A stretch of DNA of 24,000 nucleotides, from the NCBI GenBank assembly GCA_014237465.1, contig JABZFM010000016.1, positions 1 to 24,000 on the forward strand, written 5' to 3'. Both the position numbers and the translations under genes were made by a program. This DNA comes from Desulfobacteraceae bacterium (GTDB lineage Bacteria > Desulfobacterota > Desulfobacteria > Desulfobacterales > Desulfosalsimonadaceae). Positions within the stretch are counted from its first letter, which is position 1; each line of letters begins with the position of its first letter. Of the stretch, positions 1 to 12,803 are shown in pieces. The notes below the pieces were generated by a model, which made no database searches, was not told the origin of the DNA, and saw nothing but the letters and a program-made list of their open reading frames with translations.

Positions 1-837
1 GGCACCCTGTTTCCAGTCATTGGAATTTCCCAGCACGGGCGGTGGCCGGAAATGGCGGACCGCTGGATGTATGTACCGGAAATCGGCCTGTTAATCATCA
101 TCAGCTGGGGCGGGGCCGCGCTTTTATCCCGATTTCCCCGCCCCGGACTCGTCATGGCATCGCTTGGCGCAGTCATTATTGCCGCATTGATATTAAGCGC
201 CCGCACCCAGGCAGCTTACTGGCAAAACAGCATAACGCTATTTGAACACGCACTCAACGTGACTGAAAAAACCGACCTGGCCCACAACAATATAGGCGCA
301 GAACTGAACAGACAGGGGCGCATGGATGAAGCCATTCACCATTTTTTACAGGCACTGCAAATTAATCCAAATCTTGAAATGGCGCACAACAGCCTGGGAA
401 TTGCCCTGGACAAACTAGAAAGAACAGAGGAAGCCATCACCCACTATTCACAGGCGCTGCGAATTAATCCAAATCTTGAAATGACGCACAACAGCCTGGG
501 GAACGCGCTAAACAAACTCGGCAGAACCGAAGAGGCCATCTTCCATTATTTACAGGCGATACGGATTGATCCGAATCTTGAAATAGCACACACCAATCTG
601 GGAAACACGCTAAACAGGCTGGGCAGAACCGAAGAGGCCATCTTCCACTATCGCCAATCACTCGCGATCAATCCGAATGACGAACGGGTCCACTACAACC
701 TGTCCGTTGCATTATACCGAAAAGGAGATATGACACAAGCCATAAAACACTTGCAAACAGCTGTAAAACTAAATCCGGACTACACGCCGGCGAAAAATTT
801 ATTGAAAAGACTCCAAAATTCGCAGATAAGCAAATGA
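1..837 (+). CDS. C-terminal portion of a TMTC-like (GT-C fold, DUF1736/PMT_2-type) membrane protein with TPR repeats; 5' end lies upstream of the window
   Basis: Frame 1 is open from base 1 (GTLFPVIGISQHGRWPEMADRWMYVPEIGLL...). It aligns with residues ~349-380 of the downstream 629-aa ORF (GTLFPVSGISQHGRWPEMADRWAYIPEIGLL), so the ATG at 52 in the ORF track is internal. The last hydrophobic segments are followed by at least six 34-aa TPR units (AIxHYxQALRINPNLEMxHNSLGxAL). Stop at 835-837. Confidence 0.85.
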   Translation, partial: GTLFPVIGISQHGRWPEMADRWMYVPEIGLLIIISWGGAALLSRFPRPGLVMASLGAVIIAALILSARTQAAYWQNSITLFEHALNVTEKTDLAHNNIGAELNRQGRMDEAIHHFLQALQINPNLEMAHNSLGIALDKLERTEEAITHYSQALRINPNLEMTHNSLGNALNKLGRTEEAIFHYLQAIRIDPNLEIAHTNLGNTLNRLGRTEEAIFHYRQSLAINPNDERVHYNLSVALYRKGDMTQAIKHLQTAVKLNPDYTPAKNLLKRLQNSQISK

Positions 838-1330
838 GATGAAATTCCACCGCCCGATGCGGGGCGCCAAATTCCAATGCGGGTCGGTAAATTCCAATGC
901 GGGTCGGTAAATTCCAATGTAGCGGAGACCTTCAGGTCTCCATAACCCCCGGCCAAAGGCCAGGGAATTGGAAGGCTAAAGCCTTCCGCTACATAGCGGG
1001 TCGGCAACGCCCGATGCGGATCGGCAACGCCCAATGTGGATCGGCAGTCGGCAATGCCCAATGCGGGTCGGCAAATTCCAATGCGGGTAGGTAAATTCCA
1101 ATGCGGGTCGGTAAATTCCAATGCGAGTCGGTAAATTCCAATGTAACGGAGACCTTCAGGTCTCCATAACCCCTGGCCAAAGGCCAGGGAATTGGAAGGC
1201 TAAAGCCATCCGCTACATAGCGGGTCGACAACGCCCAATGTGGATCGGCAACGCCCAATGTAAATTGGCAAATTCCAATGTGGGTCGCCAAATTCCAATG
1301 TAACGGAGACCTTTAGGTCTCCATATTTAT
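838..1330. repeat. Complex intergenic repeat block: ~20-bp tandem repeats (AAATTCCAATGCGGGTCGGT and CAACGCCCAATGYGGATCGG variants) flanking copies of an ~80-nt three-hairpin palindromic element
   Basis: Full element copies lie at 915-994 and 1139-1218, giving a 224-bp super-repeat period. A truncated third copy lies at 1297-1325. Element structure: outer stem GTAGCGG/CCGCTAC enclosing hairpins GGAGACC-ttca-GGTCTCC, CCCcGGCC-aaa-GGCCaGGG and GGAAGGC-taaa-GCCTTCC. The four ORFs in the track here (both strands, MRVGKFQC-type peptides) are repeat artefacts. Confidence 0.9.
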
Positions 1331-1401: not shown

Positions 1402-3291
1402 ATGATATTTTCAATCACTTCTTCGTTTTTTAAAAAATATTTAAAAATATTTATATATTTTTTCCTCATTGTCATCACCTGTATTGTATATCAGAACATT
1501 CACCAATATGATTTCATCAACTTTGACGACGATGCATATGTAACAGACAATTCACAAATACAAAAAGGGCTTTCGTTTCAAAATATTGCGTGGGCGTTTG
1601 GGTTTTCCGAAACCGCCAACCATTTTTACTGGCACCCGGTTACATGGGTCTCGCATATGGCAGACTGTCAGTTGTTCGGACTGAACGCCGGCATGCATCA
1701 TCTGATGAATGTTATTTTTCATGTGATGAACGCGTTGCTCCTTTTCGTCATTTTTTATAAAATGACCGGCGCACTGTGGCAAAGCGCTTTTGTCGCTGTC
1801 GTATTTGCCGTCCACCCGATCAATGTCGAATCCGTGGCATGGGTTTCAGAACGCAAAAATCTGCTGAGTACCCTGTTCTGGATGCTGTCCATGCTGGCAT
1901 ATGCGTATTATGTGAAAAAACCGTCTGCTCGGCGCTATTTTCTGCTCACTATCCCTTTTATATTAGGCCTTCTGGCCAAACCGATGCTGGTCACCCTGCC
2001 ATGTGTTTTTCTGCTGATGGATTTCTGGCCCCTGGGGCGACTCAGGCTTTTCCCCTTACCAAGCAGCCGCCATATTCAAACAGACCCGCCATCATGGCAA
2101 TCAGCACCTGTACATCAACTCATCGCCGAAAAACTCCCGCTTTTGATAATATCCTTTTTTTCGGTGGGCATCTCACTATTTTCCGCCCATATGAGCCGTC
2201 AGATCATTTCCGCTGAGAACATCCCTCTGTCGCTGAGACTGGAAAATGCAGTCGTATCGTATGTCAAGTACATCGGCAACCTGTTCTGCCCGAAAGACCT
2301 GGCCGTCTTTTACCCGTTTCCGGATACGATTCCGGTCTGGCAGGTTGTTTCAGCCGCTGTCATTTTGCTGCTCATTACAGCGGCAGCCGTGCGGCTGATC
2401 CAAAAAGCCCCGTACCTGATTGTCGGCTGGCTGTGGTATCTGGGGACACTGTTTCCCGTAAGCGGTATTTCCCAGCACGGACGGTGGCCGGAAATGGCGG
2501 ACCGTTGGGCCTACATACCGGAAATCGGCCTGCTGATCATAATTGCGTGGGGCGGCGCATCACTTTTGGCCAGACTGCCGGGACGCAGATTCATTCTTCC
2601 GACGATTGCGGCCACCGTCATCACCCTGCTGGCATTGACCGCAAAATACCAGGCAGCTTACTGGGAAAACAGCATCGCCCTTTTCGAACACGCCCTCGAC
2701 GTCACAAAAAACAACTCTGTCGCCCACTTTAATCTGGGAATTGCACTGACAAAGACGGGAAAAACCGATGAAGCTATCCGGCATTATCAAAGGGCGTTAC
2801 GCATCGATCCGAATCATCCGGACATTCATATCAATCTCGGAAACGCCCTGGCACAAAAGGGATATATTGATAAAGCCATTCTTCATCTAAGCGCTGCCGT
2901 AAAAATTGATGATCAGAATGCGACAGCACGTTACAACCTGGGAACTGCGCTGGCCACTGTCGGCCGCATTGATGAGGCCATACAGCACTTTCTCGCCGCA
3001 TTGAAGATGGATCCGAACAACGATAAAGCGCACATTAATCTGGGATCACTCCTTGCCCAAAAAGGAAATTTAACCGAAGCTGTTGAGCACTTAAAAGCGG
3101 CGATCACATTAAATCCGGAAAATTGCCTGGCATATTTTAATTTAAGCGTAATCAGTCAAAATATAAATACGATCAATGATGCGATGGCATGTTATACCCT
3201 GTCAGTGGATACGCAAGATATCCCTTCCGACATCCGCCGAAAACTGGAAATGCTGCGGTTGCTGAAAAAAAAGCTCAAAGATGAAAGGTGA
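1402..3291 (+). CDS. TMTC-like GT-C family membrane protein (putative protein O-glycosyl/mannosyl-transferase type, DUF1736-like) with C-terminal TPR domain
   Basis: 629-aa ORF. The N-terminal ~400 aa contain many hydrophobic segments. An acidic loop motif (YDFINFDDDAYVTDN) follows the first TM, as in PMT/ArnT/TMTC-type GT-C enzymes. The C-terminal ~200 aa are TPR units (AIRHYQRALRIDPNHPDIHINLGNAL...). It is a paralog of the truncated upstream gene. The ATG at 1402 lacks a clear SD, so the start is less certain than the frame. Confidence 0.8.
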   Translation: MIFSITSSFFKKYLKIFIYFFLIVITCIVYQNIHQYDFINFDDDAYVTDNSQIQKGLSFQNIAWAFGFSETANHFYWHPVTWVSHMADCQLFGLNAGMHHLMNVIFHVMNALLLFVIFYKMTGALWQSAFVAVVFAVHPINVESVAWVSERKNLLSTLFWMLSMLAYAYYVKKPSARRYFLLTIPFILGLLAKPMLVTLPCVFLLMDFWPLGRLRLFPLPSSRHIQTDPPSWQSAPVHQLIAEKLPLLIISFFSVGISLFSAHMSRQIISAENIPLSLRLENAVVSYVKYIGNLFCPKDLAVFYPFPDTIPVWQVVSAAVILLLITAAAVRLIQKAPYLIVGWLWYLGTLFPVSGISQHGRWPEMADRWAYIPEIGLLIIIAWGGASLLARLPGRRFILPTIAATVITLLALTAKYQAAYWENSIALFEHALDVTKNNSVAHFNLGIALTKTGKTDEAIRHYQRALRIDPNHPDIHINLGNALAQKGYIDKAILHLSAAVKIDDQNATARYNLGTALATVGRIDEAIQHFLAALKMDPNNDKAHINLGSLLAQKGNLTEAVEHLKAAITLNPENCLAYFNLSVISQNINTINDAMACYTLSVDTQDIPSDIRRKLEMLRLLKKKLKDER

Positions 3292-3315
3292 AAAGGCGAC
3301 ATTGATCATAAAACA

Positions 3316-3632
3316 CAATGTAGCGGAAGGCTTCAGCCTTCCAGAGCCCTGGCTTTGGCCAGGGGTGATGGAGACCTGAAGGTCTCCGCTACAAGGGGCT
3401 TTAACATCCCCCGAATTTACATGGGGCGTTAACATTCCCCCGACATGGGGCATTGGCATCCCGCCGTGTCGCGGAAGGCTTCAGCCTTCCAGATCCCTGG
3501 CCTGGGGGCCAGGGATTATGGAGACCTGAAGGTCTCCGCTACAAGGGGCTTTAACATCCCCCGAATTTACATGGGGCGTTAACATTCCCCCGACATGGGC
3601 TGGTGGTATCCCGCCGTGTCGCGGAAGGCTTT
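3316..3632. repeat. 150-bp tandem repeat (2 full units plus a 17-nt start of a third), each unit beginning with an inverted-orientation copy of the three-hairpin element
   Basis: Element copies lie at 3316-3394 and 3466-3544. Hairpin order is GGAAGGC first and GGAGACC last, opposite to the copies at 915 and 1139. The marker CCGCCGTGTCGCGGAAGGCT recurs at 3461 and 3611 (period 150). Each unit also carries GGGGCTTTAACATCCCCCGAATTTACATGGGGCGTTAACATTCCCCCGACATGGG. Confidence 0.9.
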
Positions 3633-4077: not shown

Positions 4078-4920
4078 ATGAAAAAATTAGCACTTATTTT
4101 AGCATTAATGTTAATCCCCTGCAGCGCATTCGGTCTGGAAATGTTAACAGACAACGCATTGGACAACGTAACCGGTCAGAGCGGTGTTTCAATCGCTGCC
4201 GACGATATCCAGATTTTCTTAAATGTCGAAAGATTTGCATGGATCGACTGTGACGGCTATGGTACGGAATTGGCTTACGGCGGACAATGTGACTCATCTC
4301 TGGGTGGTGCGATTTATATTGATAACTTCCAGATTGACCTGCTGAACGTCAACATGATCGGCGGCAGAGGCTCAATGGCAGCTGTTAGCACATCTGAAAG
4401 CAATCAGACATTGAACGGAAACGCGTTGGGCGGTTCCACCTGCGGCGTCATCGACCTGTTCTATGACTATGGTAACACCAATTTCGGCGCATGCCTGCTT
4501 TCCGGTTCTCTTGCCGGCGCAACCAACACTCTGGGCATGGACAACTACATCAATGTCAATCCCTGGGGATCAACCTCCCCGAACGGTGGTTTCCTGGCCA
4601 AATCAATTACGATTGACGCCACCATGGCACTGCCCCTGCATTCAGCCGGATGGCGAGGCAACAACTGGGCTCATTACACAGGCAGCGAAACTATCGGCGG
4701 TGTTTTGATTGGTCTGCCGACCGCAGAAATCTACATTGGGTCACTGGTCATCACCCCGAGATTTACCGCTCAGATCAGTGCAATTCCTGCTGCTGTTGCA
4801 GGACTTTGCGCCAACGAAGGCGAATCTTACGGAACATTTGAATTACAGGGCATTACCATGTCAATACTCAGCGGATGGGTAGAAATCGCTCCTACGGGTA
4901 GAGATTATGACTCTTACTAA
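4078..4920 (+). CDS. Secreted G/N/S/T-rich protein (280 aa) with Sec signal peptide followed by a double-glycine-leader-like motif; putative cargo/structural subunit 1
   Basis: Strong SD GGAGG at 4067-4071, 6 nt before the ATG. Signal peptide MKKLALILALMLIPCSAFG, then LEMLTDNALDNVTGQ-SGVSIAADDIQIF. The N-terminal ~40 mature residues align with the next ORF. No similarity to a named family that I recognise. Confidence 0.8.
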   Translation: MKKLALILALMLIPCSAFGLEMLTDNALDNVTGQSGVSIAADDIQIFLNVERFAWIDCDGYGTELAYGGQCDSSLGGAIYIDNFQIDLLNVNMIGGRGSMAAVSTSESNQTLNGNALGGSTCGVIDLFYDYGNTNFGACLLSGSLAGATNTLGMDNYINVNPWGSTSPNGGFLAKSITIDATMALPLHSAGWRGNNWAHYTGSETIGGVLIGLPTAEIYIGSLVITPRFTAQISAIPAAVAGLCANEGESYGTFELQGITMSILSGWVEIAPTGRDYDSY

Positions 4921-4994
4921 TATCGTGTAGCGAGATTTATATTTAATGTGATATATTTTTGCATAAACGATATAAAACGGTAAGTAGCAAAAAA

Positions 4995-5030
4995 AACAGA
5001 AGCGAAGAGGGACTCCTCTTCGCTTCTGTT
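4995..5030. terminator. Perfect 16-bp stem-loop between the two cargo genes (terminator/attenuator-like)
   Basis: AACAGAAGCGAAGAGG-gact-CCTCTTCGCTTCTGTT. It is preceded by A7 and followed only by TTAATT, so the U-tract on the + strand is weak. It may act as a partial terminator or an mRNA 3'-end stabiliser for the upstream gene. Confidence 0.5.
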
Positions 5031-5063
5031 AATTGAATAACCCAAAAATCATTATTAAAAAAC

Positions 5064-6107
5064 ATGCCCCACTTATCATCCATCCGACAAATCACATTAT
5101 CCTTATTGGCATTGGCATACTCCTTATTAATTTATTTATTTATTTTTACTGTGAGTCCGGCTTGCACCTATGCCGAATTAACCGAATTGGCCAACGCTGA
5201 AATGGATTCTGTCTATGCAGCGTCCGGTATTGCCTATGGAATCAAAGACGTTCAGATATTTCATGTCATCGATCAATTTATTTATTGCCCGGATAACGGC
5301 GATGGAGATTATCTTCACTTCAAACTCTATGCCCATGACGGATTGGGCGGACCGGTAAAATACAACTTTGAATTTGCCACAGCCGGCGCCATGACAGCAT
5401 CCGGGATAATAACAATGGATATTGCGACCAATGAAATCGCCCCATTGGATGACTGGGACCTCTCAACAGGCCCTTCAGATTTTGACACTGTATATAAAGT
5501 CATGCAGCACACCCACTGCCCATTATGGGATCAGGATCTCGCATACTCTCTCATAGATTTTACATTTTCAGACGGTATCTCCAGTTATAATCTGGGAGAA
5601 TTTGACATCGGCCCCATTGACCTTCGTTCCTATGGTTTCCATATAGCACCCCATCCGGGTGATGGAGTAGATTTTGATTATTCCTTTGAGTCACATATTC
5701 AATATTTATCATATGCATACATAGCTGACCCAGTGACCCCCGCGAACACCAAACGATTAACGTTTGAAAATATGCACTTTGGCAACACCTTTGATTATGG
5801 TATCGCCGGCGATGACCCCACAGATCCAACAACATGGAAATCAGATATCGGCGAATTCCAAATCGGTGATATGTTTGGCGATCTGACCAGCACGGACCCT
5901 AAAAACTGGCACTCCCGCCCGGCTCAGATTGATGCCGTCATGACAAATCGTTGGGACAATAGCACTTATTACGGCGCCCTTCTCCTTCGCTTGCCAATGG
6001 AAGGTGCCATCCGTTTTGAAAAAGCAGACTTCGGCGGCACGGACTTCGGTCCCGGCACCATTGATGGGATTAACATCTACCGCATGGATATGTATTTGAT
6101 TCCGTAA
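5064..6107 (+). CDS. Secreted protein (347 aa), paralog of the 4078 gene in its N-terminal module; putative cargo/subunit 2
   Basis: Signal-like N-terminus (MPHLSSIRQITLSLLALAYSLLIYLFIFTVSPACTYA), then ELTELANAEMDSVYAA-SGIAYGIKDVQIF. This aligns position-by-position with LEMLTDNALDNVTGQ-SGVSIAADDIQIF of the preceding protein. No SD before the ATG at 5064. Confidence 0.75.
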   Translation: MPHLSSIRQITLSLLALAYSLLIYLFIFTVSPACTYAELTELANAEMDSVYAASGIAYGIKDVQIFHVIDQFIYCPDNGDGDYLHFKLYAHDGLGGPVKYNFEFATAGAMTASGIITMDIATNEIAPLDDWDLSTGPSDFDTVYKVMQHTHCPLWDQDLAYSLIDFTFSDGISSYNLGEFDIGPIDLRSYGFHIAPHPGDGVDFDYSFESHIQYLSYAYIADPVTPANTKRLTFENMHFGNTFDYGIAGDDPTDPTTWKSDIGEFQIGDMFGDLTSTDPKNWHSRPAQIDAVMTNRWDNSTYYGALLLRLPMEGAIRFEKADFGGTDFGPGTIDGINIYRMDMYLIP

Positions 6108-6358: not shown

Positions 6359-6387
6359 TTGACAAATTATAGGTATTTAAATATAAT
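6359..6387 (+). promoter_or_regulatory. Consensus sigma70 promoter (TTGACA-N17-TATAAT) upstream of the C39 peptidase gene
   Basis: TTGACA at 6359-6364, an exact 17-nt spacer, TATAAT at 6382-6387, ~70 nt upstream of the ATG at 6458. A small hairpin GGTGGG-gaagcaa-CCCACC (6423-6441) lies in the predicted leader. Confidence 0.55.
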
Positions 6388-6457: not shown

Positions 6458-7213
6458 ATGCATGTACTTATCGGTTTAGTCATTTCAGTTTGTATCTTTG
6501 CAAGCTTCCATGATATACGAGTGATCCCTAAAGATGAGATCAGTCTTAATATCGGCGGCCAATACCCCGTGTTTACCCACCAAAACGTAACGCCGCTGTC
6601 GGCAATTTTAGATAAAAACATCGTTACGCAAACCCACGATTTCAGTTGTGGTTCAGCAGCACTTGCTACTTTACTCAATTATTACCTCAACGAAAATTTT
6701 ACAGAAAGCCAGGTTATTCAGGGGTTGATGGAATACGGTAATAAAAAAAATATAACGGAACGAAGAGCATTTTCTTTGCTGGACATGAAAAAATTTGTTG
6801 GCTTATTAGGTTATAAAGGGGCTGGTTATAAAGCCGAAATAAACGACTTAATTGAGCTCGGCACTCCCTGTATTATTCCGATTGAATTTTTGGGATACCG
6901 GCATTTCACAGTACTAAAGGGAATTTATGATAATCACATTTTCCTGGCGGACCCTTATAGGGGGAACACCAGTTATACGCTTTCAGCATTTAAAAAAATG
7001 TGGTATGAAAATGTTATTTTTATCATTGAACCCGGAGGTGCGCCAACCCTTACTGCGCTGCAACTAACCAATGATGATCTTAGATATATTAACGAGAATA
7101 CCCTTCAAGACATTCTATTTGAAAACACTCACGAGATTCCTTTTCCGAACAAACATGAACGTGAATTCTTTTTTACCTTACCCGATGAGTATAACAGATA
7201 TACTCCTCGATAA
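6458..7213 (+). CDS. Stand-alone periplasmic/membrane-anchored peptidase C39-like cysteine protease (251 aa)
   Basis: N-terminal hydrophobic signal/anchor MHVLIGLVISVCIFASF. C39 layout: Gln six residues before the catalytic Cys (QTHDFSCGSAALATLLNYY), then GYRHFTVLKG (His) and FLADPYRGN (Asp). No ABC-transporter TM or ATPase domains are attached. Confidence 0.8.
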   Translation: MHVLIGLVISVCIFASFHDIRVIPKDEISLNIGGQYPVFTHQNVTPLSAILDKNIVTQTHDFSCGSAALATLLNYYLNENFTESQVIQGLMEYGNKKNITERRAFSLLDMKKFVGLLGYKGAGYKAEINDLIELGTPCIIPIEFLGYRHFTVLKGIYDNHIFLADPYRGNTSYTLSAFKKMWYENVIFIIEPGGAPTLTALQLTNDDLRYINENTLQDILFENTHEIPFPNKHEREFFFTLPDEYNRYTPR

Positions 7214-7323
7214 TACGCTTAATTTTTGAACAAAAACATATGCTTCTAAAATTACGGTTATAATTTTTTATATATATTTTAATGATTTATATCAATATAA
7301 ACAATTGTTGTGGAGGATTAACG

Positions 7324-8850
7324 TTGAAAAAGTTTTCAAGAAAAATTTTCTTTGTCCTAAGTTTTATCTTGATCTTTGGTCTGCATATTTCTTCAGGGTT
7401 CTGCACAACAATAAATGATATTATCAGTGATTCAACATCGACTGAAGATCAAAATAACATCAACACTGATTCCGACAATATATCGATCCATGATGATAGC
7501 ACACAAACATCATATTTTGCTATCCAACTCGGTGTTTACCTCAAACAGAAAGATGCTGATAATCAAATTATTGATTTTAAGACAAAAGGTTTTGATCCTT
7601 ACATCTTTCAGTCAATAAATTCCAAAGGCCAGACTGTTTATTCGGCACGTATCGGAAAATATGAAAATTATCAAACTGCCGGCAATGAACTTTCCCGTTT
7701 GGAAAAAAATTTTAATCAAACCGCATTAATAACCTATTATGATTCTTTAAACCCTGTTGATTCAACAGAAATTCTTTCATCTTCAAGGAAACCGCCCGCT
7801 GAAGTGGCACCTGAATCTTCTGATGATCAACCGAGCGATGCGGTTCAGGAAAACTTAGAAACCGATCCCTATGCTTCAGTTAATGAATCAGAAAGTTTAA
7901 AAGCCCTTCAAGAAAAAATCAACGCTCTTGAATCGGCGATAGAGCAACTTCAAGAGGAATCTGATGTTCGCCGGCAATTAACAATAACAGAAGAAGAATC
8001 GGCGCAGGAAGAAGAAGATATTCTTGAAGCTGCCGGCCGGCAGTACACCCTTACGGAAGCAGGAAATATCAAGTTTAGAGTTGGCGTCAGTTATGCTTAT
8101 AGTGAATACGATGCGATTAAAGAAGCTGCTCGCGTGGAGGATGTGGCGGATCATACCATTTCTACATCATTGAATGTTTCTTATGGGTTAAAGGATAATG
8201 TTACTTTAGGCGTTGGCATTCCATTTGTCTATAAATACCACAAAGTCGGCACTGTGGATTCAATGGATACAAATGATCTGGGCGATCTGGGCCTATCCTG
8301 GCAATTTCAGCCGTCAAAATCAAGCGGTGATCTGCCCACAATAATTATAAACGGCAGTTTTTCGGTCCCGGTTGGCCGAAGCCCCTACGAAATTCAGGTT
8401 GGAGAGGAATTGTCCACTAGTTCCGGTTTATATTCAACCAATCTCGGCGTATCAGTCAGCCAGGTATCAGATCCGGTGGTTGTATATAGCAGTTTTGGCC
8501 TTACTTATTCGCTTCCCCTTTCTGGTATCAATCAAAAACGTGCTGAAGGCGTATTGGATAAGATTGACCCCGGTATCGGGCTTGGTGTTGGAGCCGGCAT
8601 GGGGTATGCGTTGTCTTATAAATTAAATCTTAACCTCAGCTTTAACTATTCCTATAGTTTTGAGACAACTTATAAGTATAAAAATGCCCCTGAAGCGACG
8701 AGCGGAGTCGGTGTATCCGCTGGCCTAACCCTTGGTGTCGGCTATAAGGTCAGCCAAAACCAGAACCTTAATTTTTATCTTGGCATTCCGTTGACAAATA
8801 GCAGAAGTTTTTCTTTTGGCTTTAGCACACCAATTGAATTTGAATTATAG
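7324..8850 (+). CDS. Outer-membrane protein: signal peptide + SPOR domain + acidic linker + coiled coil + C-terminal beta-barrel
   Basis: Preferred start is TTG at 7324 (SD GGAGG 7312-7316, 7-nt spacer), giving LKKFSRKIFFVLSFILIFGLHISSGFC. The upstream ATG at 7282 is an alternative. SPOR-like segment: YFAIQLGVYLKQKDADNQIIDFKTKGFDPYIFQSINSKGQTVYSARIGKYENYQTAGNELSRL. Heptad segment: SLKALQEKINALESAIEQLQEE. The last ~270 aa have alternating-residue strands with G-rich turns and end in FSFGFSTPIEFEL. Confidence 0.75.
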   Translation: MKKFSRKIFFVLSFILIFGLHISSGFCTTINDIISDSTSTEDQNNINTDSDNISIHDDSTQTSYFAIQLGVYLKQKDADNQIIDFKTKGFDPYIFQSINSKGQTVYSARIGKYENYQTAGNELSRLEKNFNQTALITYYDSLNPVDSTEILSSSRKPPAEVAPESSDDQPSDAVQENLETDPYASVNESESLKALQEKINALESAIEQLQEESDVRRQLTITEEESAQEEEDILEAAGRQYTLTEAGNIKFRVGVSYAYSEYDAIKEAARVEDVADHTISTSLNVSYGLKDNVTLGVGIPFVYKYHKVGTVDSMDTNDLGDLGLSWQFQPSKSSGDLPTIIINGSFSVPVGRSPYEIQVGEELSTSSGLYSTNLGVSVSQVSDPVVVYSSFGLTYSLPLSGINQKRAEGVLDKIDPGIGLGVGAGMGYALSYKLNLNLSFNYSYSFETTYKYKNAPEATSGVGVSAGLTLGVGYKVSQNQNLNFYLGIPLTNSRSFSFGFSTPIEFEL

Positions 8851-8892
8851 ATTTTCTGACCTGTATATATTTTATAGCTTTTTTATTCAGTG

Positions 8893-10734
8893 ATGCATTT
8901 CAGAGGAGACTTCGGGTTGTTCCTGTTTATTAAAAAGAGTTTTTTTTATACATTCATTGTGGTGGCTGTTTTTTTTTGCCGCCCATTTTATTCTTATGCG
9001 ACATTTGTTGAGCAGCTTGCGATATGTGCAAAAGGCACAGCACTTGCTAATGCATGTACGGCTGATCCTCCGGGAATCATGTCGATCCATTATAACCCGG
9101 CAGGCCTTTCTCAACTTCCTGAAGGAAAAGTGTTTGAGCAGGGTTTTCTCCTCCCCTGGCTTCAAAATACCTGGAAATATGAGGCCGACCCGGAATTTCC
9201 CGGTTTTATGTCTACATGGGGCCCTCAGGAGGGACAAGAACCTGATCCCCTTGACGGCACGAAAAGCACCAATAGCAGTGGTGTTATGTACTTACCCATC
9301 TATGACGACTTTATAAATTTTCTTGCCGGCCCGTCTGCCGGACTTTCATCCCGAAAACCCGGTTCCAAATGGACATTTGCTATTGGCAACTATGCCCCAT
9401 ATGGCGGTGGGATGAACTATAAAAGTGACAGCCCGGCAAGATTTGGTGTCAGGACCCTTTATCTCCAACATCTGATATATGCCATGCCGGCCGTCAGTTA
9501 TCAAATTTCCGAGACCTTGTCTGTGGGGATTGCTACCGGTATCGGCCAAACGGCAATGGGGCTGAGGTTAAATATGCGTTCTCCCAATGAAATGGTGGCA
9601 TTAACACGGGTTCTGGGTGATGCAACAAAGGATCTTTACATCCCGGTACTTTCTGACCTTACTCTCCCCCCGCCCTGGTTTGGCGGGGGTATCAGTCCTT
9701 ATGATCAGGTGGCCACTTTTGATCTGCAAGCTCGTGATGATTTTTCCCCAAATTATAATCTTGGTTTGTTGTGGCAACCCAAAAAGTGGTTTTCTTATGG
9801 CTTTAATTATCAAAGCGAAATCAAGTCTGACTTAACAGGTGGATATAACTTTAAATATGGAGAAGAATGGCAGCGTATGATGGCCTGGATGGGCAGTTCA
9901 CCCTTATTGCTAATCGTCAGCGGCATGTTTCAGCTGCCTACTCAGGCCGTTACCCATCAAAGTGGAACCATAACGTCTATCCGGCTTTTTCCCCAGCGCA
10001 TTCAAACCGGGATCATGGTTAAACCGACAAAAAGACTTAAGGTTTTATTTGACGTGCAATGGGCGCAATGGTCAATCATTCAAGAGGATAATTTCCAAAC
10101 TGACCAGGACATTCAGCTCCTGCAACTGGTTAAAATGCTAGGATATACAGGCGGCCACCGTAATTTAATCATTCCGCGAGAACTTAAAGACACCCTTCAT
10201 TGGAGCGCCGGGCTGGAGTATCAGCTTAAACCCAATCTTGCCCTTCGATGCGGTTATGAATTTCGGCCGACATCTACCCGGGCAAATCTGTATGACCAGC
10301 AATATTTTGTACCGGATTTGCACAATATCGGCGTCGGGGTTGGTGTAAAACTGCCCCATGGCGTAACGCTTGATATCGGTTTAGGTTATGCTTTCAACCA
10401 TTCAAATAAAATCCCGAATAACAGTACGCAAAATTTAACTTCTACTGATTTCTTTATTCCGGTATATAACCCGTATGCCGGCTTGGACGTTGAGCAGAAA
10501 TTGGAAATATTTACATTTGCGGTTGCCGTAAACATGCCCTTCCATGCCTTTATTGAGCATCAAAAGCACTTGATGCACAAACAGCATGAAGCAATTGGTC
10601 ATCTCATCGGCTTGTTTAAAAAACCATTTGCTCATAATGAAGAAACAGGCAATATCACTGAAATCATACCCGATGCTGACCCGAAAATCGAAACTGAAAC
10701 TGGAACTGAAACTGAATCTAACGCACACCAATAA
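8893..10734 (+). CDS. FadL/TodX/OMPP1-family outer-membrane transport barrel with a C-terminal His-rich/acidic extension
   Basis: N-terminal family signature after the signal peptide (AKGTALANACTADPPGIMSIHYNPAGLSQL). Long beta-rich body. A barrel-terminating strand FTFAVAVNMPF is followed by ~65 extra residues (HAFIEHQKHLMHKQHEAIGH...ETETGTETESNAHQ). Start is ambiguous: GTG 8890, ATG 8893, or TTG 8917 (SD GAGGAG 8903-8908). Confidence 0.65.
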   Translation: MHFRGDFGLFLFIKKSFFYTFIVVAVFFCRPFYSYATFVEQLAICAKGTALANACTADPPGIMSIHYNPAGLSQLPEGKVFEQGFLLPWLQNTWKYEADPEFPGFMSTWGPQEGQEPDPLDGTKSTNSSGVMYLPIYDDFINFLAGPSAGLSSRKPGSKWTFAIGNYAPYGGGMNYKSDSPARFGVRTLYLQHLIYAMPAVSYQISETLSVGIATGIGQTAMGLRLNMRSPNEMVALTRVLGDATKDLYIPVLSDLTLPPPWFGGGISPYDQVATFDLQARDDFSPNYNLGLLWQPKKWFSYGFNYQSEIKSDLTGGYNFKYGEEWQRMMAWMGSSPLLLIVSGMFQLPTQAVTHQSGTITSIRLFPQRIQTGIMVKPTKRLKVLFDVQWAQWSIIQEDNFQTDQDIQLLQLVKMLGYTGGHRNLIIPRELKDTLHWSAGLEYQLKPNLALRCGYEFRPTSTRANLYDQQYFVPDLHNIGVGVGVKLPHGVTLDIGLGYAFNHSNKIPNNSTQNLTSTDFFIPVYNPYAGLDVEQKLEIFTFAVAVNMPFHAFIEHQKHLMHKQHEAIGHLIGLFKKPFAHNEETGNITEIIPDADPKIETETGTETESNAHQ

Positions 10735-10994: not shown

Positions 10995-11117
10995 CGTTTT
11001 ACGATAAATATCGTAGTGGCGGGGTTTATCCCCGCCAAGTATTGAATCAACGTTTTGCCCTGGTTTATTGAGATGTTACCGATTTATTTATTATTCATAT
11101 TGAAAGGATTATCTGAT

Positions 11118-12803
11118 ATGCGGTTGCGTTTTGTTTTATTTGCGTTATTTATTATTATTTTGCTGCAATTTTCCAATGCGTTTTGCGAGGACAATAAACA
11201 TGATTTTTCTGTAAAAACTAAACTCCTCAGCACTATTCCGCAGAATGCTGATATTGTAGACACCTCCATTAAATTCAGTTCGGATTACAAAAACATCACT
11301 TATGTGACGTTTACGGATAAAACGCATAAATTTATCCATCTAAATAATAAAACCAGCCCTGTATATTATGCTGTTCATCCATCGACTCCTATTTTTGAGC
11401 CAGAAACAAATAAGCTGGCTTACATTGCGTATAAAAATAAGGACGGTAATGCGACAGTGACTGTTGATGGTGTTTCCGGACCTGTTTTTGATAGCGCGGA
11501 TAATTTCATATTCAGCAATGATGGTATGAGATATGCCTACCGGGGAGTTAAAAAAGATCAACAATGCACAGTGATCGATGGGAAGCCCGGACCATTATTC
11601 AAAGGTATTCCGATAAAAAATAATTTTAAATTCAGCCCGGACTCCAAACACTTCGCTTATGTTGCCTTAAAGGAAAACGGCTGTGTGCTTGTATTGGATG
11701 GGCAAGAAGATGACCAAGCATTTAATTTTATCACTGGTGTAACTTTCAGCTTCGATTCTAAGCACATTGCCTACAAGGCGAGAGTTAAAAAAAGCAGAGT
11801 AAGGGAATCCTGGCGTGTGGTTTCCGATGTAGTCAATGAAAACAGTTATGACAAAATTTTTGATCTGGTTTACAGTTATGATTCAAAAAATCTGGCTTAT
11901 GCCGCAATTAAAAACGAAAAAATGGTTATTGTTGTTAATGGTCAGGAAAAGGATTCTCAGGATATGTACGGTTTGCCTGTGTTTTCTTTGGACTCACAAA
12001 AATTAGCATACTCCTACATGAATAAAAAGAAAGCCTATGTTGCTATTAATGATAAAAGAGGGCCCGGATTCGATACCCTTTATACATTTTTTTTCAGTCC
12101 GGATTCATCAAGATATGCCTACATTGCCAAAAAAAATGATGAAATATACTGCGTTATTGATGGAGAAGTCAGTGACGCGTTTCTGGATATTGCGGCATTA
12201 AAGTTCAGTCCAAACTCTGCGCGCTATGTATATAGTTCTTCAACTGATAAGGGAAGTAAAATTATTATTGACGGAGTCCCTGGGAATAATTACCCATCCA
12301 TTGGTGACGCTTATTTCAGCCCGGATTCGAAGCATGTGGTTTATCGGGCAGTAACAAAAGGTGTAAAATGGGGCACCATCCTGAACGGAAAACAATTGGG
12401 TAAAAATTACTTTGCTATCAGCCCATATTATTTTTCTGCAGATTCACGGCATCTTGCGTTTCGGGGAATGGTAGACATGGATAAATCGGTATTGATACTT
12501 GATGGCATAGAATTACCAAAAGATAGAGCCTTTACAATCCTTGGAGATCCATGGTTCAGCCCCGATGGGAACCATATCGCTTTTCACGCCCGAATAAAAG
12601 AAAATTCGTGGAAACTTATTGTTGACGGTCACGTACTTAATGAAACATATGGTGGTTTTATAAAAGACACCCCCATAATTTTTGACTCAAACAACCATTT
12701 TCATACCATTGCGTTAAGGAATCCCGAAAATCCTGAATTTATAACAATTGATGTTGATATTCCTGACGCTGTAAAAATCAAAACGGAGCTTAAAACGCCT
12801 TGA
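11118..12803 (+). CDS. Secreted beta-propeller protein with ~12-13 PD40/TolB-like repeats (FSPDSKHxAY)
   Basis: Preferred start is ATG at 11118 (AAAGGA 9 nt upstream), giving the signal peptide MRLRFVLFALFIIILLQFSNAFC. The TTG at 11055 in the ORF track adds an implausible extension. A repeat unit of ~40-45 aa, VxxDGxxGPxF...FSPDSxxxAY, occurs about a dozen times. Confidence 0.8.
   Translation: MRLRFVLFALFIIILLQFSNAFCEDNKHDFSVKTKLLSTIPQNADIVDTSIKFSSDYKNITYVTFTDKTHKFIHLNNKTSPVYYAVHPSTPIFEPETNKLAYIAYKNKDGNATVTVDGVSGPVFDSADNFIFSNDGMRYAYRGVKKDQQCTVIDGKPGPLFKGIPIKNNFKFSPDSKHFAYVALKENGCVLVLDGQEDDQAFNFITGVTFSFDSKHIAYKARVKKSRVRESWRVVSDVVNENSYDKIFDLVYSYDSKNLAYAAIKNEKMVIVVNGQEKDSQDMYGLPVFSLDSQKLAYSYMNKKKAYVAINDKRGPGFDTLYTFFFSPDSSRYAYIAKKNDEIYCVIDGEVSDAFLDIAALKFSPNSARYVYSSSTDKGSKIIIDGVPGNNYPSIGDAYFSPDSKHVVYRAVTKGVKWGTILNGKQLGKNYFAISPYYFSADSRHLAFRGMVDMDKSVLILDGIELPKDRAFTILGDPWFSPDGNHIAFHARIKENSWKLIVDGHVLNETYGGFIKDTPIIFDSNNHFHTIALRNPENPEFITIDVDIPDAVKIKTELKTP

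What the first reader, a model, noticed from the sequence alone, without database searches (positions are those of the whole stretch)
4078..6107. Tandem leader architecture: Sec signal peptide immediately followed by a double-glycine-type amphipathic leader in two paralogs
After the predicted signal-peptidase sites, the two proteins read LEMLTDNALDNVTGQ|SGVSI and ELTELANAEMDSVYAA|SGIAY.

Counting back from the marked junction, both have hydrophobic residues at -4 (V/V), -7 (L/M), -12 (L/L) and -15 (L/L). The second also has Glu at -8. This is the spacing characteristic of double-glycine leaders recognised by C39 peptidase domains. The canonical GG is replaced by GQ and AA.

The alignment continues for ~20 residues after the junction (SGxxxxxxDxQIF). 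The rest of the two proteins diverges.

Classical GG-leader peptides are Sec-independent and are cleaved by ABC-transporter-fused C39 domains. A Sec signal followed by a GG-like leader, next to a periplasmic C39 enzyme, implies a two-step maturation pathway. Alternatively, the conserved N-terminal module could be a channel-targeting signal like the N-terminal segment of CsgA.
Basis: partly seen in the sequence, partly recalled or inferred. Interest (0 to 1): 0.75.

Follow-up and report, generated by a model that had tools for sequence, protein, structure and literature searches.

The report
Sec signal plus double-glycine-like leader
Two secreted fibre-subunit-like proteins carry, right after their export signal, a 15-residue segment that looks like the leader cut by C39 peptidases. 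A C39 peptidase, probably periplasmic, is encoded next door, which gives a testable answer to what this enzyme class recognises.

Summary
Both proteins have a signal peptide followed directly by a 15-16-residue amphipathic segment, then about 45 homologous residues, and are otherwise unrelated.

This N-terminal module is Pfam DUF6160, the N-terminus of Acinetobacter FilA. The locus resembles the Fil "putative pilus" system and is related to the Pseudomonas Fap amyloid system: two subunits, a C39 peptidase, a FapF-like channel and a FadL-like barrel.

In 263 distinct homolog segments, positions -15, -12, -7 and -4 are almost always hydrophobic. Position -2 is Gly or Ala, and -1 is Gln (87%) rather than Gly/Ala/Ser.

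Four results support a separable leader ending at the marked junction:
- Two-domain relatives duplicate only the part after the junction.
- FapE-like proteins next to FapD-like peptidases carry R-G-G in the same register.
- AlphaFold confidence is lower over the segment than over the core.
- A C39 gene lies beside the subunit genes in 19 of 24 relatives' loci with enough flank.

Cleavage itself is inferred, not shown. I found no paper describing this leader. I rate it a new variant of a known kind, of moderate to high interest.

The parts
4078..4920 (+). P1: DUF6160-family subunit-like protein (280 aa), probably the major subunit
   Evidence: Pfam DUF6160 at 40.1 bits, above the gathering score of 27. 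The NCBIfam FilA model matches residues 1-90 only. 239 homologs were found. A GGAGG ribosome-binding site precedes the ATG.
4078..4134 (+). P1 Sec-type signal peptide (M1-G19), with signal-peptidase motif A-F-G|L
   Evidence: Sequence. In the family, position -18 is Ala in 77% and position -16 is Gly or Ala in 84% of segments. This fits the small-residue rule at -3 and -1 of a signal-peptidase site placed directly before the leader.
4135..4179 (+). P1 double-glycine-like leader segment, L20-Q34 (LEMLTDNALDNVTGQ)
   Evidence: Family column statistics. AlphaFold places a helix at residues 25-32 with pLDDT about 62, against 85-90 in the core. The segment aligns with the FapE-like leader in the same register.
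4180..4257 (+). P1 conserved start of the mature domain, S35-G60 (SGVSIAADDIQIFLNVERFAWIDCDG)
   Evidence: G at +2 is found in 100%, I at +5 in 86%, D at +8 and +9 in about 80% of segments. This part, without the leader, is duplicated inside two-domain relatives.
4995..5030 (.). 16-bp G+C-rich hairpin between the P1 and P2 genes
   Evidence: It may act as an attenuator or stabiliser after the putative major subunit gene; this is an inference.
5064..6107 (+). P2: second subunit-like protein (347 aa) that shares only the N-terminal module with P1
   Evidence: DUF6160 at 19.2 bits, below the gathering score. 23 homologs, most of them flagged DUF6160. Profile comparison with the P1 family gives 98.6% probability.
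5064..5174 (+). P2 signal peptide (M1-A37)
   Evidence: Homologs all carry an N-terminal signal peptide, so the ATG at 5064 is preferred over the annotated GTG at 5151.
5175..5222 (+). P2 leader segment, E38-A53 (ELTELANAEMDSVYAA)
   Evidence: AlphaFold pLDDT is 45-56 here. Residues -8 to -4 read EMDSV, against ELDSV in the colicin V leader.
5223..5357 (+). P2 conserved start of the mature domain (S54 to about V98)
   Evidence: End of the BLASTP and profile alignments with P1. G55 is invariant in the P2 family.
6359..6387 (+). Perfect sigma-70 consensus (TTGACA, 17 nt, TATAAT) upstream of the peptidase gene
   Evidence: This is a consensus match only.
6458..7213 (+). FilB/FapD-like stand-alone C39 cysteine peptidase (251 aa)
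   Evidence: Pfam Peptidase_C39 E 3e-18. NCBIfam FilB 190 bits and FapD 108 bits. It aligns with LahT150 and PCAT1. Q58, C64, H149 and D165 are invariant in 122 relatives. Residues 3-17 form an N-terminal hydrophobic segment.
7282..8850 (+). FilC/FapF-like outer-membrane barrel with an N-terminal SPOR domain and a coiled coil
   Evidence: NCBIfam FilC 175 bits, FapF 33 bits; Pfam SPOR. Found in the same order in related loci.
8890..10734 (+). FilD-like OmpP1/FadL-family outer-membrane protein
   Evidence: Pfam Toluene_X E 1.5e-45; NCBIfam FilD 273 bits. Conserved in related loci.
11055..12803 (+). Beta-propeller-repeat protein, a conserved companion of the operon
   Evidence: Weak PD40 and TmcD-like matches. 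Homologs occur in most related loci. In L049 and L051 they sit between the subunit genes and the peptidase gene.
1402..3291 (+). Multi-pass membrane protein with C-terminal TPR repeats; a homolog carries a weak Pfam PMT_2 match. A conserved upstream companion.
   Evidence: TPR matches. PMT_2 (weak) is listed for a homolog. One to five paralogs lie upstream of the subunit genes in the related Desulfobacterales-type loci.

Best explanation
P1 and P2 are exported subunits of a Fil/Fap-type outer-membrane fibre system, and they mature in two steps.

1. **Sec export and signal-peptidase cleavage (inferred from sequence).** Cleavage at A-x-[GA] leaves a 15-16-residue amphipathic segment at the new N-terminus.
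2. **Leader removal by the C39 peptidase (inferred by homology).**
   - The segment forms a helix whose residues at -4, -7, -12 and -15 dock in the hydrophobic groove of the neighbouring FilB/FapD-like peptidase, as double-glycine leaders do in LahT150, ComA and PCAT1.
   - The peptidase then cuts after [Gly/Ala]-Gln, or within one residue of that bond: Q34|S35 in P1 and A53|S54 in P2.
3. **Export and assembly (inferred from the Fap system).** The trimmed subunit, starting [Ser/Ala]-Gly-Val-x-Ile, is passed to the FapF-like channel, with the FadL-like barrel and the beta-propeller protein as helpers, and assembles outside the cell.

**What is shown:** the architecture, its conservation, its separability from the mature domain, the intact catalytic residues, and the gene linkage.

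**What is not shown:** cleavage, the exact bond, and the topology of the peptidase.
For: **1. Leader-like conservation (263 distinct segments).**
- -15: Leu or Met, 100%.
- -12: Leu, Met, Ile or Val, 100%.
- -7: Met or Leu, 99%.
- -4: Val or Ile, 97%.
- -2: Gly 83%, Ala 16%.
- Signal-peptidase motif at -18 and -16; the segment starts at residues 20-28 in 87% of proteins.

**2. Match to tested C39 substrate rules.** For LahT150 the last 13 leader residues suffice. Positions -4, -7 and -12 must be hydrophobic, while -3, -5 and -8 tolerate change (PMC6363468). The colicin V leader, checked by tblastn, is MRTLTLNELDSVSGG, with the same -8 to -4 stretch as P2.

**3. Separable module.** In ten two-domain relatives (414-603 aa) the segment after the junction recurs internally at about residues 208-260. 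All 18 internal matches start at profile position 11 or later, which is leader position -5. The first ten leader positions, including -15, -12 and -7, are never duplicated.

**4. Same register with a true Gly-Gly.**
- In seven proteobacterial loci the gene after a FapD-like peptidase encodes a signal peptide followed by ...hydrophobic(-12)...L(-7)...R-G-[G/R]. G at -2 is invariant.
- Profile comparison picks leader against leader, ending GQ against GG, as the best local match (E 0.002).

**5. Structure models.** The segment has pLDDT 45-62, against 80-90 for the core, in two independent models.

**6. The enzyme.** Q58, C64, H149 and D165 are invariant in 122 relatives, and the protein aligns with double-glycine proteases.

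**7. Gene linkage.** The subunit-subunit-C39-FilC-FilD order holds in 8 of 8 loci seeded with P1 homologs that have enough flank. A C39 gene is present in 11 of 16 evaluable metagenome loci. Leader-bearing ORFs occur in 3 of 4 loci seeded with distant C39 homologs. The A. baumannii Fil locus, found with the C39 query, also has a leader-bearing FilA beside FilB.

**8. Precedent.** FapD needs its catalytic Cys for secretion, works in the periplasm, and FapE lacks its N-terminal ~70 residues in cells (PMC5557850).
Against: - Position -1 is Gln in 87% of segments and is variable in the P2 family. Characterised C39 peptidases cut after Gly, Ala or Ser.
- The only invariant residue is Gly at +2, beyond the proposed bond, so the cut could lie elsewhere.
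- Glu at -8 is present in only 21% of segments.
- No cleavage data exist for any DUF6160 or FilA protein in the literature I could reach.
- The window's peptidase lacks a basic n-region before its hydrophobic segment, so its topology is inferred, not predicted with a dedicated tool.
- Four evaluable metagenome loci have leader-bearing genes with no C39 gene within 3-8 kb downstream, and a fifth (L060) shows only a FilD-like gene before its contig ends.
- The profile-profile support for the register is modest: 16-18 aligned columns, 13-16% probability.
- No model of the peptidase-leader complex could be computed.
Confidence: 0.55

Rival explanations
1. The segment is a docking or targeting signal that is bound but not removed at this site. 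It would be recognised by the FilC/FapF-like channel, by the FadL-like protein, or by the peptidase acting as an adaptor, much as the CsgA N-terminal segment targets curli subunits to CsgG. In this reading the real substrate of the peptidase is another component, such as the periplasmic linker of the channel protein.
For: - Conservation runs without a break across the junction, and the strongest positions (+2, +5, +8, +9) lie after it.
- Position -1 does not fit known C39 specificity.
- For Fap, cleavage of the FapF linker has been proposed (PMC5557850; PMC12822426).
- One FilC-like protein (L011) carries six tandem copies of the leader-like motif in its periplasmic linker, so the motif can occur on the channel protein itself.
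Against: - The catalytic residues of the peptidase are invariant, and FapD needs its Cys, so something is cut.
- The hydrophobic spacing and the Gly/Ala at -2 are exactly what a C39 groove reads.
- FapE-like neighbours carry a canonical G-G in the same register.
- Conservation after the junction is explained by the start of a structural domain that also occurs without the leader.
Confidence: 0.22
2. The segment is a permanent structural part of the subunit. It could be an N-terminal helix or strand used for subunit-subunit contacts in the fibre, or a capping element. The likeness to double-glycine leaders would then be convergent, since any short amphipathic helix has this spacing.
For: - The bare pattern is loose, at 0.2-1 hit per 1000 aa in unrelated proteins.
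- N-terminal segments mediate polymerisation in several pilus types (established knowledge).
- AlphaFold does predict a short helix here.
Against: - Model confidence is lower over the segment than over the core in both models.
- The segment is absent from the internal copies of the domain.
- It always sits 0-1 residue after the signal-peptidase site.
- It travels with a C39 gene.
- The same motif is found outside subunits, in the L011 channel protein.
Confidence: 0.13
3. The module descends from a Fap-type amyloid repeat (L-S-N-x-x-G-x-x-G-x-N...) rather than from a bacteriocin-type leader. The G-x-x-G would then be a beta-arc of a cross-beta unit.
For: A FapB/C-like ORF in the Aeromonas locus reads ALSNIRGSMGVNMVAGNNNQQGN. 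By eye this aligns with MDSITGQAGVSIAVDD, and the two systems share a homologous peptidase and channel.
Against: - No Gln/Asn-rich repeats occur in P1 or P2.
- NCBIfam finds no Fap subunit match.
- The predicted folds are globular all-beta domains with conserved Cys residues.
- The resemblance rests on a single eye alignment and was not tested statistically.
Confidence: 0.05

Closest known systems
Pseudomonas Fap functional-amyloid system (FapD peptidase, FapE, FapF channel)
   Same: - A stand-alone, Sec-exported C39 peptidase is needed for secretion, together with a FapF-type outer-membrane barrel that has a periplasmic coiled coil.
- A Sec-exported substrate appears to lose its N-terminal part.
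- The window's peptidase and channel match the FapD and FapF models (108 and 33 bits).
- FapE-like proteins beside FapD-like genes carry a leader in the same register.
   Different: - The window has no Gln/Asn-rich amyloid subunits and no FapA, FapB, FapC or FapE homologs.
- The subunits are DUF6160 proteins predicted as globular beta-rich domains.
- A FadL-like barrel, a SPOR domain on the channel protein and a beta-propeller protein are added.
- The junction reads G-Q, not G-G.
- For Fap itself, the recognition motif of FapD has not been defined (PMC12822426).
Acinetobacter Fil 'putative pilus system' (NCBIfam FilA-FilD; FilE and FilF)
   Same: - Same gene order: FilA-like subunit, FilB C39 peptidase, FilC, FilD.
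- All four window proteins have these models as their best NCBIfam match.
- A. baumannii FilA has the same architecture...SANAMA|MQSMDDAALSAATGQ|DGINIGI.
   Different: - All scores are far below the curated cut-offs (42 vs 220, 190 vs 475, 175 vs 630, 273 vs 970).
- There are two divergent subunits instead of one.
- No FilE or FilF is present.
- The channel protein carries a SPOR domain, and extra conserved partners are present.
- The Fil system is uncharacterised beyond detection of FilA and FilF in proteomes.
Double-glycine leader peptides cut by C39 domains of ABC exporters (ComA, LahT, PCAT1, CvaB with colicin V)
   Same: - The leader is 15 residues long.
- Hydrophobic residues sit at -4, -7, -12 and -15, and a small residue at -2.
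- A C39 enzyme with the Gln/Cys/His/Asp set is encoded nearby.
- Residues -8 to -4 of P2 (EMDSV) nearly equal those of colicin V (ELDSV).
   Different: - Classical leaders sit at the very N-terminus of Sec-independent peptides and are cut in the cytoplasm by a transporter-fused domain.
- Here the leader follows a Sec signal and the enzyme is free-standing.
- Position -1 is Gln, not Gly, Ala or Ser.
- The cargo is a 250-350-residue folded protein.
Type V pili of Bacteroidota (FimA/Mfa1); from established knowledge, not tested here
   Same: Two-step maturation of a fibre subunit. A signal peptide is removed first; then a dedicated protease removes an N-terminal prosegment, which permits polymerisation.
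   Different: - Those subunits are lipoproteins cut by Arg-gingipain at the cell surface.
- There is no C39 enzyme, no double-glycine-like helix, and the fold is unrelated.
   Same: A short N-terminal segment of a Sec-exported fibre subunit, needed for passage through a dedicated outer-membrane channel.
   Different: - The CsgA segment is retained in the mature protein.
- No protease is part of the curli system.
- There is no sequence similarity.

Membership tests
Double-glycine (GG) leader peptide | Hydrophobic residues at -4, -7 and -12 (and usually -15) on one face of a helix | tested here: met
   In 263 distinct segments: -4 is Val/Ile in 97%, -7 is Met/Leu in 99%, -12 is Leu/Met/Ile/Val in 100%, and -15 is Leu/Met in 100%. 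The requirement is taken from PMC6363468.
Double-glycine (GG) leader peptide | Gly at -2 and Gly, Ala or Ser at -1 | tested here: not met
   Position -2 is Gly in 83% and Ala in 16% of segments, which is close. Position -1 is Gln in 87%; Gly, Ala and Ser together make up about 7%. P1 has G-Q and P2 has A-A.
Double-glycine (GG) leader peptide | The leader is the extreme N-terminus of a Sec-independent precursor | tested here: not met
   The leader always follows a Sec-type signal peptide and starts at residues 20-28 in 87% of proteins.
Double-glycine (GG) leader peptide | A cognate C39 peptidase is encoded nearby | tested here: met
   The window gene at 6458-7213. A C39 gene is present in 8 of 8 loci seeded with P1 homologs and in 11 of 16 evaluable metagenome loci.
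Double-glycine (GG) leader peptide | The leader is removed by the C39 peptidase | not testable with these tools
   This needs N-terminal sequencing or an in vitro assay.
Pfam DUF6160 (PF19657) | Score above the gathering threshold (27 bits) | tested here: met
   P1 scores 40.1 bits. P2 scores only 19.2 bits, but the P2 family profile matches the P1 family at 98.6% probability, and most P2 homologs are flagged PF19657.
NCBIfam FilA/FilB/FilC/FilD (Acinetobacter Fil system) | Scores above the curated cut-offs | tested here: not met
   Scores against cut-offs are 41.8 vs 220, 190 vs 475, 175.3 vs 630 and 273.2 vs 970. The proteins are homologous but are not the same named proteins.
NCBIfam FilA/FilB/FilC/FilD (Acinetobacter Fil system) | FilE and FilF are present downstream | tested here: not met
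   No FilE or FilF match among the downstream ORFs. A. baumannii has both.
Fap functional-amyloid system | Gln/Asn-rich repeat subunits FapB/FapC, plus FapA and FapE | tested here: not met
   No NCBIfam Fap subunit matches. The P1 and P2 sequences contain no such repeats.
Fap functional-amyloid system | A periplasmic C39 peptidase together with a FapF-type barrel | tested here: met
   FapD model 107.6 bits and FapF model 33.1 bits. Both are below the equivalog cut-offs but significant.
Peptidase family C39 | Gln (oxyanion hole), Cys, His and Asp catalytic residues in the C39 fold | tested here: met
   Pfam E 3.3e-18. The alignment with LahT150 (6mpz) and PCAT1 (4ry2) lines up Cys, His and Asp. 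Q58, C64, H149 and D165 are invariant in 122 relatives.

The most novel reading that the evidence does not exclude
Stand-alone C39 peptidases of the FapD/FilB class, probably periplasmic, would as a class read a double-glycine-type leader delivered by the Sec pathway. The leader would be ...T-G-Q in DUF6160/FilA subunits and ...R-G-G in FapE-like proteins. Its removal would be the licensing step for export through FapF/FilC channels. This would name the long-sought substrate motif of FapD, and would define a widespread two-step maturation route for outer-membrane fibres: 686 DUF6160 clusters and 4925 C39 relatives found here. It would have arisen by moving a bacteriocin-type leader and protease pair from the cytoplasm to the periplasm.
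Probability: 0.45. Interest if true: 0.75.

Novelty: new variant of a known kind. Interest (0 to 1): 0.6.

Why it matters
- Since 2017 it has been known that the periplasmic C39 peptidase FapD is essential for Fap amyloid secretion. What it recognises is still described only as "thought to" be FapE and FapF (2025 review, PMC12822426).
- A conserved, precisely placed leader in the sister Fil-type systems, plus a matching R-G-G motif in FapE-like proteins, turns that open question into simple experiments: N-terminal mass spectrometry and peptide cleavage assays.
- It gives a function to the N-terminal part of a Pfam family of unknown function (DUF6160) found in hundreds of clusters.
- The Fil locus of Acinetobacter baumannii is included; its FilF has been proposed as a vaccine antigen.
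- It suggests how a cytoplasmic leader-protease pair was re-used behind a Sec signal.
- If position -1 really is Gln, it widens the known specificity of C39 peptidases, which are used as leader-removal tools.

Tried and rejected
**Tools and searches that led nowhere.**
- Foldseek against the PDB found nothing significant for either subunit model.
- The first, diverse alignment (A2) was too variable for a genome scan.
- The only primary paper on the Fil pilus (Hori 2011, PubMed 20855232) is not held, so any N-terminal sequence data there could not be read.
- A search for "FapD" alone was swamped by an unrelated paediatric abbreviation.
- Scanning 28-residue leader fragments against NCBIfam gave only a weak match to the leader end of a type 2 lantibiotic model (E 0.11). 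This is too weak to use.

**Ideas considered and rejected.**
- *Lipoprotein reading of the conserved "IPC" in P1's signal peptide.* Pro before Cys does not fit a lipobox, and the wider family lacks the Cys.
An error of one residue either way cannot be excluded.
- *A leader-like site in the conserved channel-protein motif ILEAAGRQYTL.* Position -4 would be Ala or Ser.
- *Tandem leader-like repeats as a general feature of channel proteins.* Only 1 of 30 FilC-like proteins has them.


Full report
**What is in the window.**
On the + strand, seven genes lie one after another:
- P1, 4078-4920, 280 aa.
- P2, 5064-6107, 347 aa.
- A C39 cysteine peptidase, 6458-7213.
- An outer-membrane barrel with a SPOR domain, 7282-8850.
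- An OmpP1/FadL-family barrel, 8890-10734.
- A beta-propeller-repeat protein, 11055-12803.
- A protein matching the choice-of-anchor B model (NCBIfam TIGR04312), 12800-14794.

The best NCBIfam matches for P1, the peptidase and the two barrels are FilA, FilB, FilC and FilD, the "putative pilus system" of Acinetobacter. The peptidase and the first barrel also match FapD and FapF of the Pseudomonas amyloid system. All these scores are significant but lie well below the curated cut-offs. P1 is identical to a hypothetical protein from a Desulfobacteraceae metagenome-assembled genome.

- P1 reads MKKLALILALMLIPCSAFG|LEMLTDNALDNVTGQ|SGVSIAADDIQIF.
- P2 reads ...SPACTYA|ELTELANAEMDSVYAA|SGIAYGIKDVQIF.
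- BLASTP aligns only the N-terminal ~65 residues (E 3e-6). Profiles of the two families match at 98.6% probability over about the first 95 columns only.
- The public annotation starts P2 at a GTG 29 codons downstream, which removes the signal peptide. All homologs have a signal peptide, so the longer reading is preferred.

**The module is a catalogued family of unknown function.**
- P1 passes the Pfam DUF6160 threshold. P2 scores below it, but most of its homologs are flagged DUF6160.
- A profile of the module finds 686 clusters (50% identity) at E<=1e-3 among 1.84 billion proteins.

| Position | Residues |
|---|---|
| -18 | Ala 77% |
| -16 | Gly 63%, Ala 21% |
| -15 | Leu 76%, Met 24% |
| -12 | Leu, Met, Ile or Val 100% |
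| -10 | Asp 77% |
| -7 | Met 63%, Leu 36% |
| -6 | Asp 68% |
| -4 | Val 59%, Ile 38% |
| -3 | Thr 81% |
| -2 | Gly 83%, Ala 16% |
| -1 | Gln 87% |
| +1 | Ala 48%, Ser 42% |
| +2 | Gly 100% |
| +3 | Val 80%, Ile 17% |
| +5 | Ile 86% |
| +8, +9 | Asp 78%, 82% |

- Positions -18 and -16 form a signal-peptidase motif placed exactly before the segment.
- The segment starts at residues 20-28 in 87% of proteins. After signal-peptidase cleavage it would therefore be the free N-terminus and 15-16 residues long.

**How it compares with real double-glycine leaders.**
- For the protease LahT150, the last 13 leader residues suffice. Positions -4, -7 and -12 must be hydrophobic, and -3, -5 and -8 can be changed. 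[quoted passage not shown]
- The ComA consensus is Leu(-12)-X3-Glu(-8)-Leu(-7).
- The colicin V precursor, which I checked at 100% identity against plasmid records, starts MRTLTLNELDSVSGG|ASG. Its -8 to -4 stretch, ELDSV, is nearly that of P2, EMDSV, and its leader is also 15 residues long.
- The clear departure is position -1: Gln here, against Gly, Ala or Ser in known substrates. Glu at -8 occurs in only 21% of segments.

**Independent support for a separable leader that ends at this junction.**
1. *Internal duplications.* Ten relatives of 414-603 aa contain a second, internal copy of the conserved segment at about residues 208-260, for example GSSGVDIAMDDIQIYMKVDEIRFTDT. All 18 internal matches begin at profile position 11 or later, which corresponds to leader position -5. 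The first ten leader positions, including -15, -12 and -7, are never duplicated. The part after the junction is therefore the first element of a structural domain, and the leader is an N-terminal-only addition. This also explains why conservation continues past the junction.
2. *Structure models.* AlphaFold models of P1 (mean pLDDT 80.8) and P2 (78.8) give the segment pLDDT 62 and 45-56. Each predicts a short helix there, against 80-90 for the beta-rich cores that start at +2 or +3.
3. *Specificity of the leader profile.* A leader-only HMM, run over all six-frame ORFs of 14 related loci and the window, reported only N-terminal sites of subunit genes at 4 bits or more.

**The same architecture with a true Gly-Gly.**
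A tblastn search of plasmid records with the peptidase retrieved two kinds of locus. Several of these records are in fact chromosomes or chromids.
- *The A. baumannii Fil locus.* FilA there reads ...SANAMA|MQSMDDAALSAATGQ|DGINIGI, the same design as in the window.
- *FapD/FapF-like loci* in Cupriavidus, Polymorphobacter, Aeromonas, Photobacterium, Indioceanicola, Croceicoccus and Vibrio.
  - In all seven, the gene just after the peptidase encodes a signal peptide followed by a leader-like stretch. Examples are ITDYELATMRGG|IRL, LTDDEMSSLRGG|FVS and LADGELAHLRGR|YVS.
  - In their alignment Gly at -2 is invariant, position -7 is Leu in six of seven (Met in one) and Arg at -3 occurs in six of seven.
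- *Register.* Profile comparison of the DUF6160 leader with this family selects leader against leader as the best local alignment, ending GQ against GG (E 0.002 and 0.0016).
- *Link to published data.* In Pseudomonas, FapE lacks its N-terminal ~70 residues and has GG/GA motifs there (PMC5557850).

**The enzyme.**
- The peptidase aligns with LahT150 and PCAT1.
- Q58, C64, H149 and D165 are invariant in 122 relatives, so it is most likely active.
- FapD-like relatives have classical signal peptides, and one has a lipobox. FapD has been shown to act in the periplasm.
- The window's enzyme, like A. baumannii FilB, has an N-terminal hydrophobic segment without a basic n-region. Its periplasmic location is therefore an inference.

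**Gene linkage.**
- All 8 loci found through P1 homologs that have enough flank show subunit, subunit, C39, FilC, FilD in that order.
- Of 4 loci found through more distant C39 homologs, 3 contain leader-bearing ORFs. The fourth ends 1.5 kb upstream of the peptidase gene.
- A metagenome scan with [VI]TGQ[AS]GVSI gave 80 loci. Sixteen have enough sequence to judge:
  - 11 have the C39 gene;
  - 4 do not have it within 3-8 kb downstream;
  - 1 shows only a FilD-like gene before its contig ends.
- Together, 19 of the 24 subunit-seeded loci that can be judged have the C39 gene. The A. baumannii Fil locus, found with the C39 query, also has FilA next to FilB.
- The beta-propeller protein and upstream membrane proteins with TPR repeats are further conserved partners.

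**Literature.**
- DUF6160 appears in one unrelated paper.
- The Fil pilus is mentioned only by name.
- I found no description of a double-glycine-type leader behind the signal peptide of FilA or DUF6160 proteins. The library does not cover subscription journals.

**Verdict.**
- The most likely mechanism is two-step maturation: Sec export with signal-peptidase cleavage, then removal of a 15-residue double-glycine-like leader by the neighbouring C39 peptidase, at or next to [Gly/Ala]-Gln|[Ser/Ala]-Gly. Export through the FapF-like channel would follow.
- The architecture, its conservation, its separability and the gene linkage are shown. Cleavage, the exact bond and the enzyme's topology are inferred.
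- The main rival is a docking signal that is not removed at this site. The odd -1 residue, and one channel protein with six tandem leader-like repeats, keep that reading alive.
- The segment is not a member of the classical double-glycine leader family, because two defining features fail. It most likely works like one.
- I file it as a new variant of a known kind, with confidence 0.55 in the mechanism and interest 0.6.

Noticed in passing
L011:8792-10723 (FilC-like protein, residues ~161-260): There are six tandem 16-residue repeats: ISPEELSQIAAGTGSV, INADEMARIDGQTGAL, LKTEELSQIAAQSGTV, ISSNEMATVDGRTGSV, IPSEEMATVDGRTGAV and VPSTELATVDGQTGQS. Each reproduces the minimal leader, with hydrophobic residues at -12, -7 and -4, Glu at -8 in five of the six, Gly/Ala at -2, and then x-Gly. 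They lie in the periplasmic linker between the SPOR domain and the coiled coil. Only 1 of 30 FilC-like proteins has them. They may be peptidase docking or cleavage sites on the channel protein.
   Followed up: partly
Proteins P0296, P0304, P0320, P0329, P0353, P0354, P0359, P0362, P0385, P0388 (relatives of window 4180-4257): These two-domain family members repeat the segment after the junction (xSG[IV]D[IL]x[LM]DD[IV]x[IL][YF]xK[IV]DE[IL]R[FY]TD) internally at about residues 208-260, but not the leader. The boundary of the repeated domain therefore falls at the proposed cleavage site.
   Followed up: yes
L016-L021 and L023 (FapD-like loci of Cupriavidus, Polymorphobacter, Aeromonas, Photobacterium, Indioceanicola, Croceicoccus, Vibrio): The gene directly downstream of each FapD-like peptidase encodes a FapE-like protein with a signal peptide and a conserved ...L(-7)...R-G-[G/R] motif. 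Small proteins directly upstream (L016 6393-6881, L017 6661-6975, L019 5708-6043, L021 6492-6887) also carry a leader-like stretch ending G-G, G-K or G-R, placed before a shared C-terminal ...NTGNNV/NSGNNV... region.
   Followed up: partly
window 5064-5153: The public annotation (P0121, 318 aa) starts P2 at GTG 5151 and so loses the signal peptide. The same protein is also filed under an "ANME-2 cluster archaeon" bin, which looks like a binning error for a bacterial outer-membrane operon.
   Followed up: partly
window 52-837 and 1402-3291; upstream regions of L001-L010, L026, L031: One to five paralogous genes for multi-pass membrane proteins with C-terminal TPR repeats always precede the subunit genes in the Desulfobacterales-type loci; one homolog carries a weak Pfam PMT_2 (glycosyltransferase) match. 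The window also holds a truncated copy at 52-837. They might modify the fibre subunits.
   Followed up: no
window 839-1325 and 3304-3631: Arrays of hairpin-forming repeats (core GTAGCGGAGACCTTCAGGTCTCCAT) flank the 1402-3291 gene in inverted orientation, like REP or miniature-element sequences. They also create the many spurious short ORFs in this region.
   Followed up: partly
window 4995-5030 and 6359-6387: A 16-bp G+C-rich hairpin sits between P1 and P2. A perfect TTGACA-17-TATAAT match sits just upstream of the peptidase gene. Together they suggest higher expression of P1 and separate transcription of the machinery genes.
   Followed up: no
window 4078-4134 and its homologs (P0001-P0120): The signal peptide of the P1 clade (MKKLALILALMLIPC[ST]AFG) is far more conserved than the mature protein, which is about 45% identical. 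The wider family has ordinary, variable signal peptides. The reason is unknown.
   Followed up: partly
window 8890-10734: Besides FadL/TodX, the FilD-like barrel weakly matches the PorV/PorQ family (37 bits). PorV is the FadL-like shuttle that carries cargo in type IX secretion, which hints at a cargo-handling role here.
   Followed up: no
window 11055-14794; L049, L051, L031, L032, L094: The beta-propeller protein is a conserved member of the system, and its position varies: in L049 and L051 it lies between the subunit genes and the peptidase gene. L031, L032 and L094 have subunit genes plus the propeller gene, with no peptidase gene in the available sequence.
   Followed up: partly
L062:2170-2646 and L085:2063-2479: Small (138-158 aa) leader-bearing DUF6160 genes stand alone, with no Fil-type machinery within 5-8 kb downstream. 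They may be orphan or minor subunit genes served by a peptidase encoded elsewhere.
   Followed up: no
L018:5227-5733 (Aeromonas FapB/C-like ORF): The start of a Fap-type amyloid repeat (ALSNIRGSMGVNMVAGNNNQQGN) lines up by eye with the DUF6160 junction region (MDSITGQAGVSIAVDD). This raises the possibility of a distant relationship between the two kinds of subunit.
   Followed up: no
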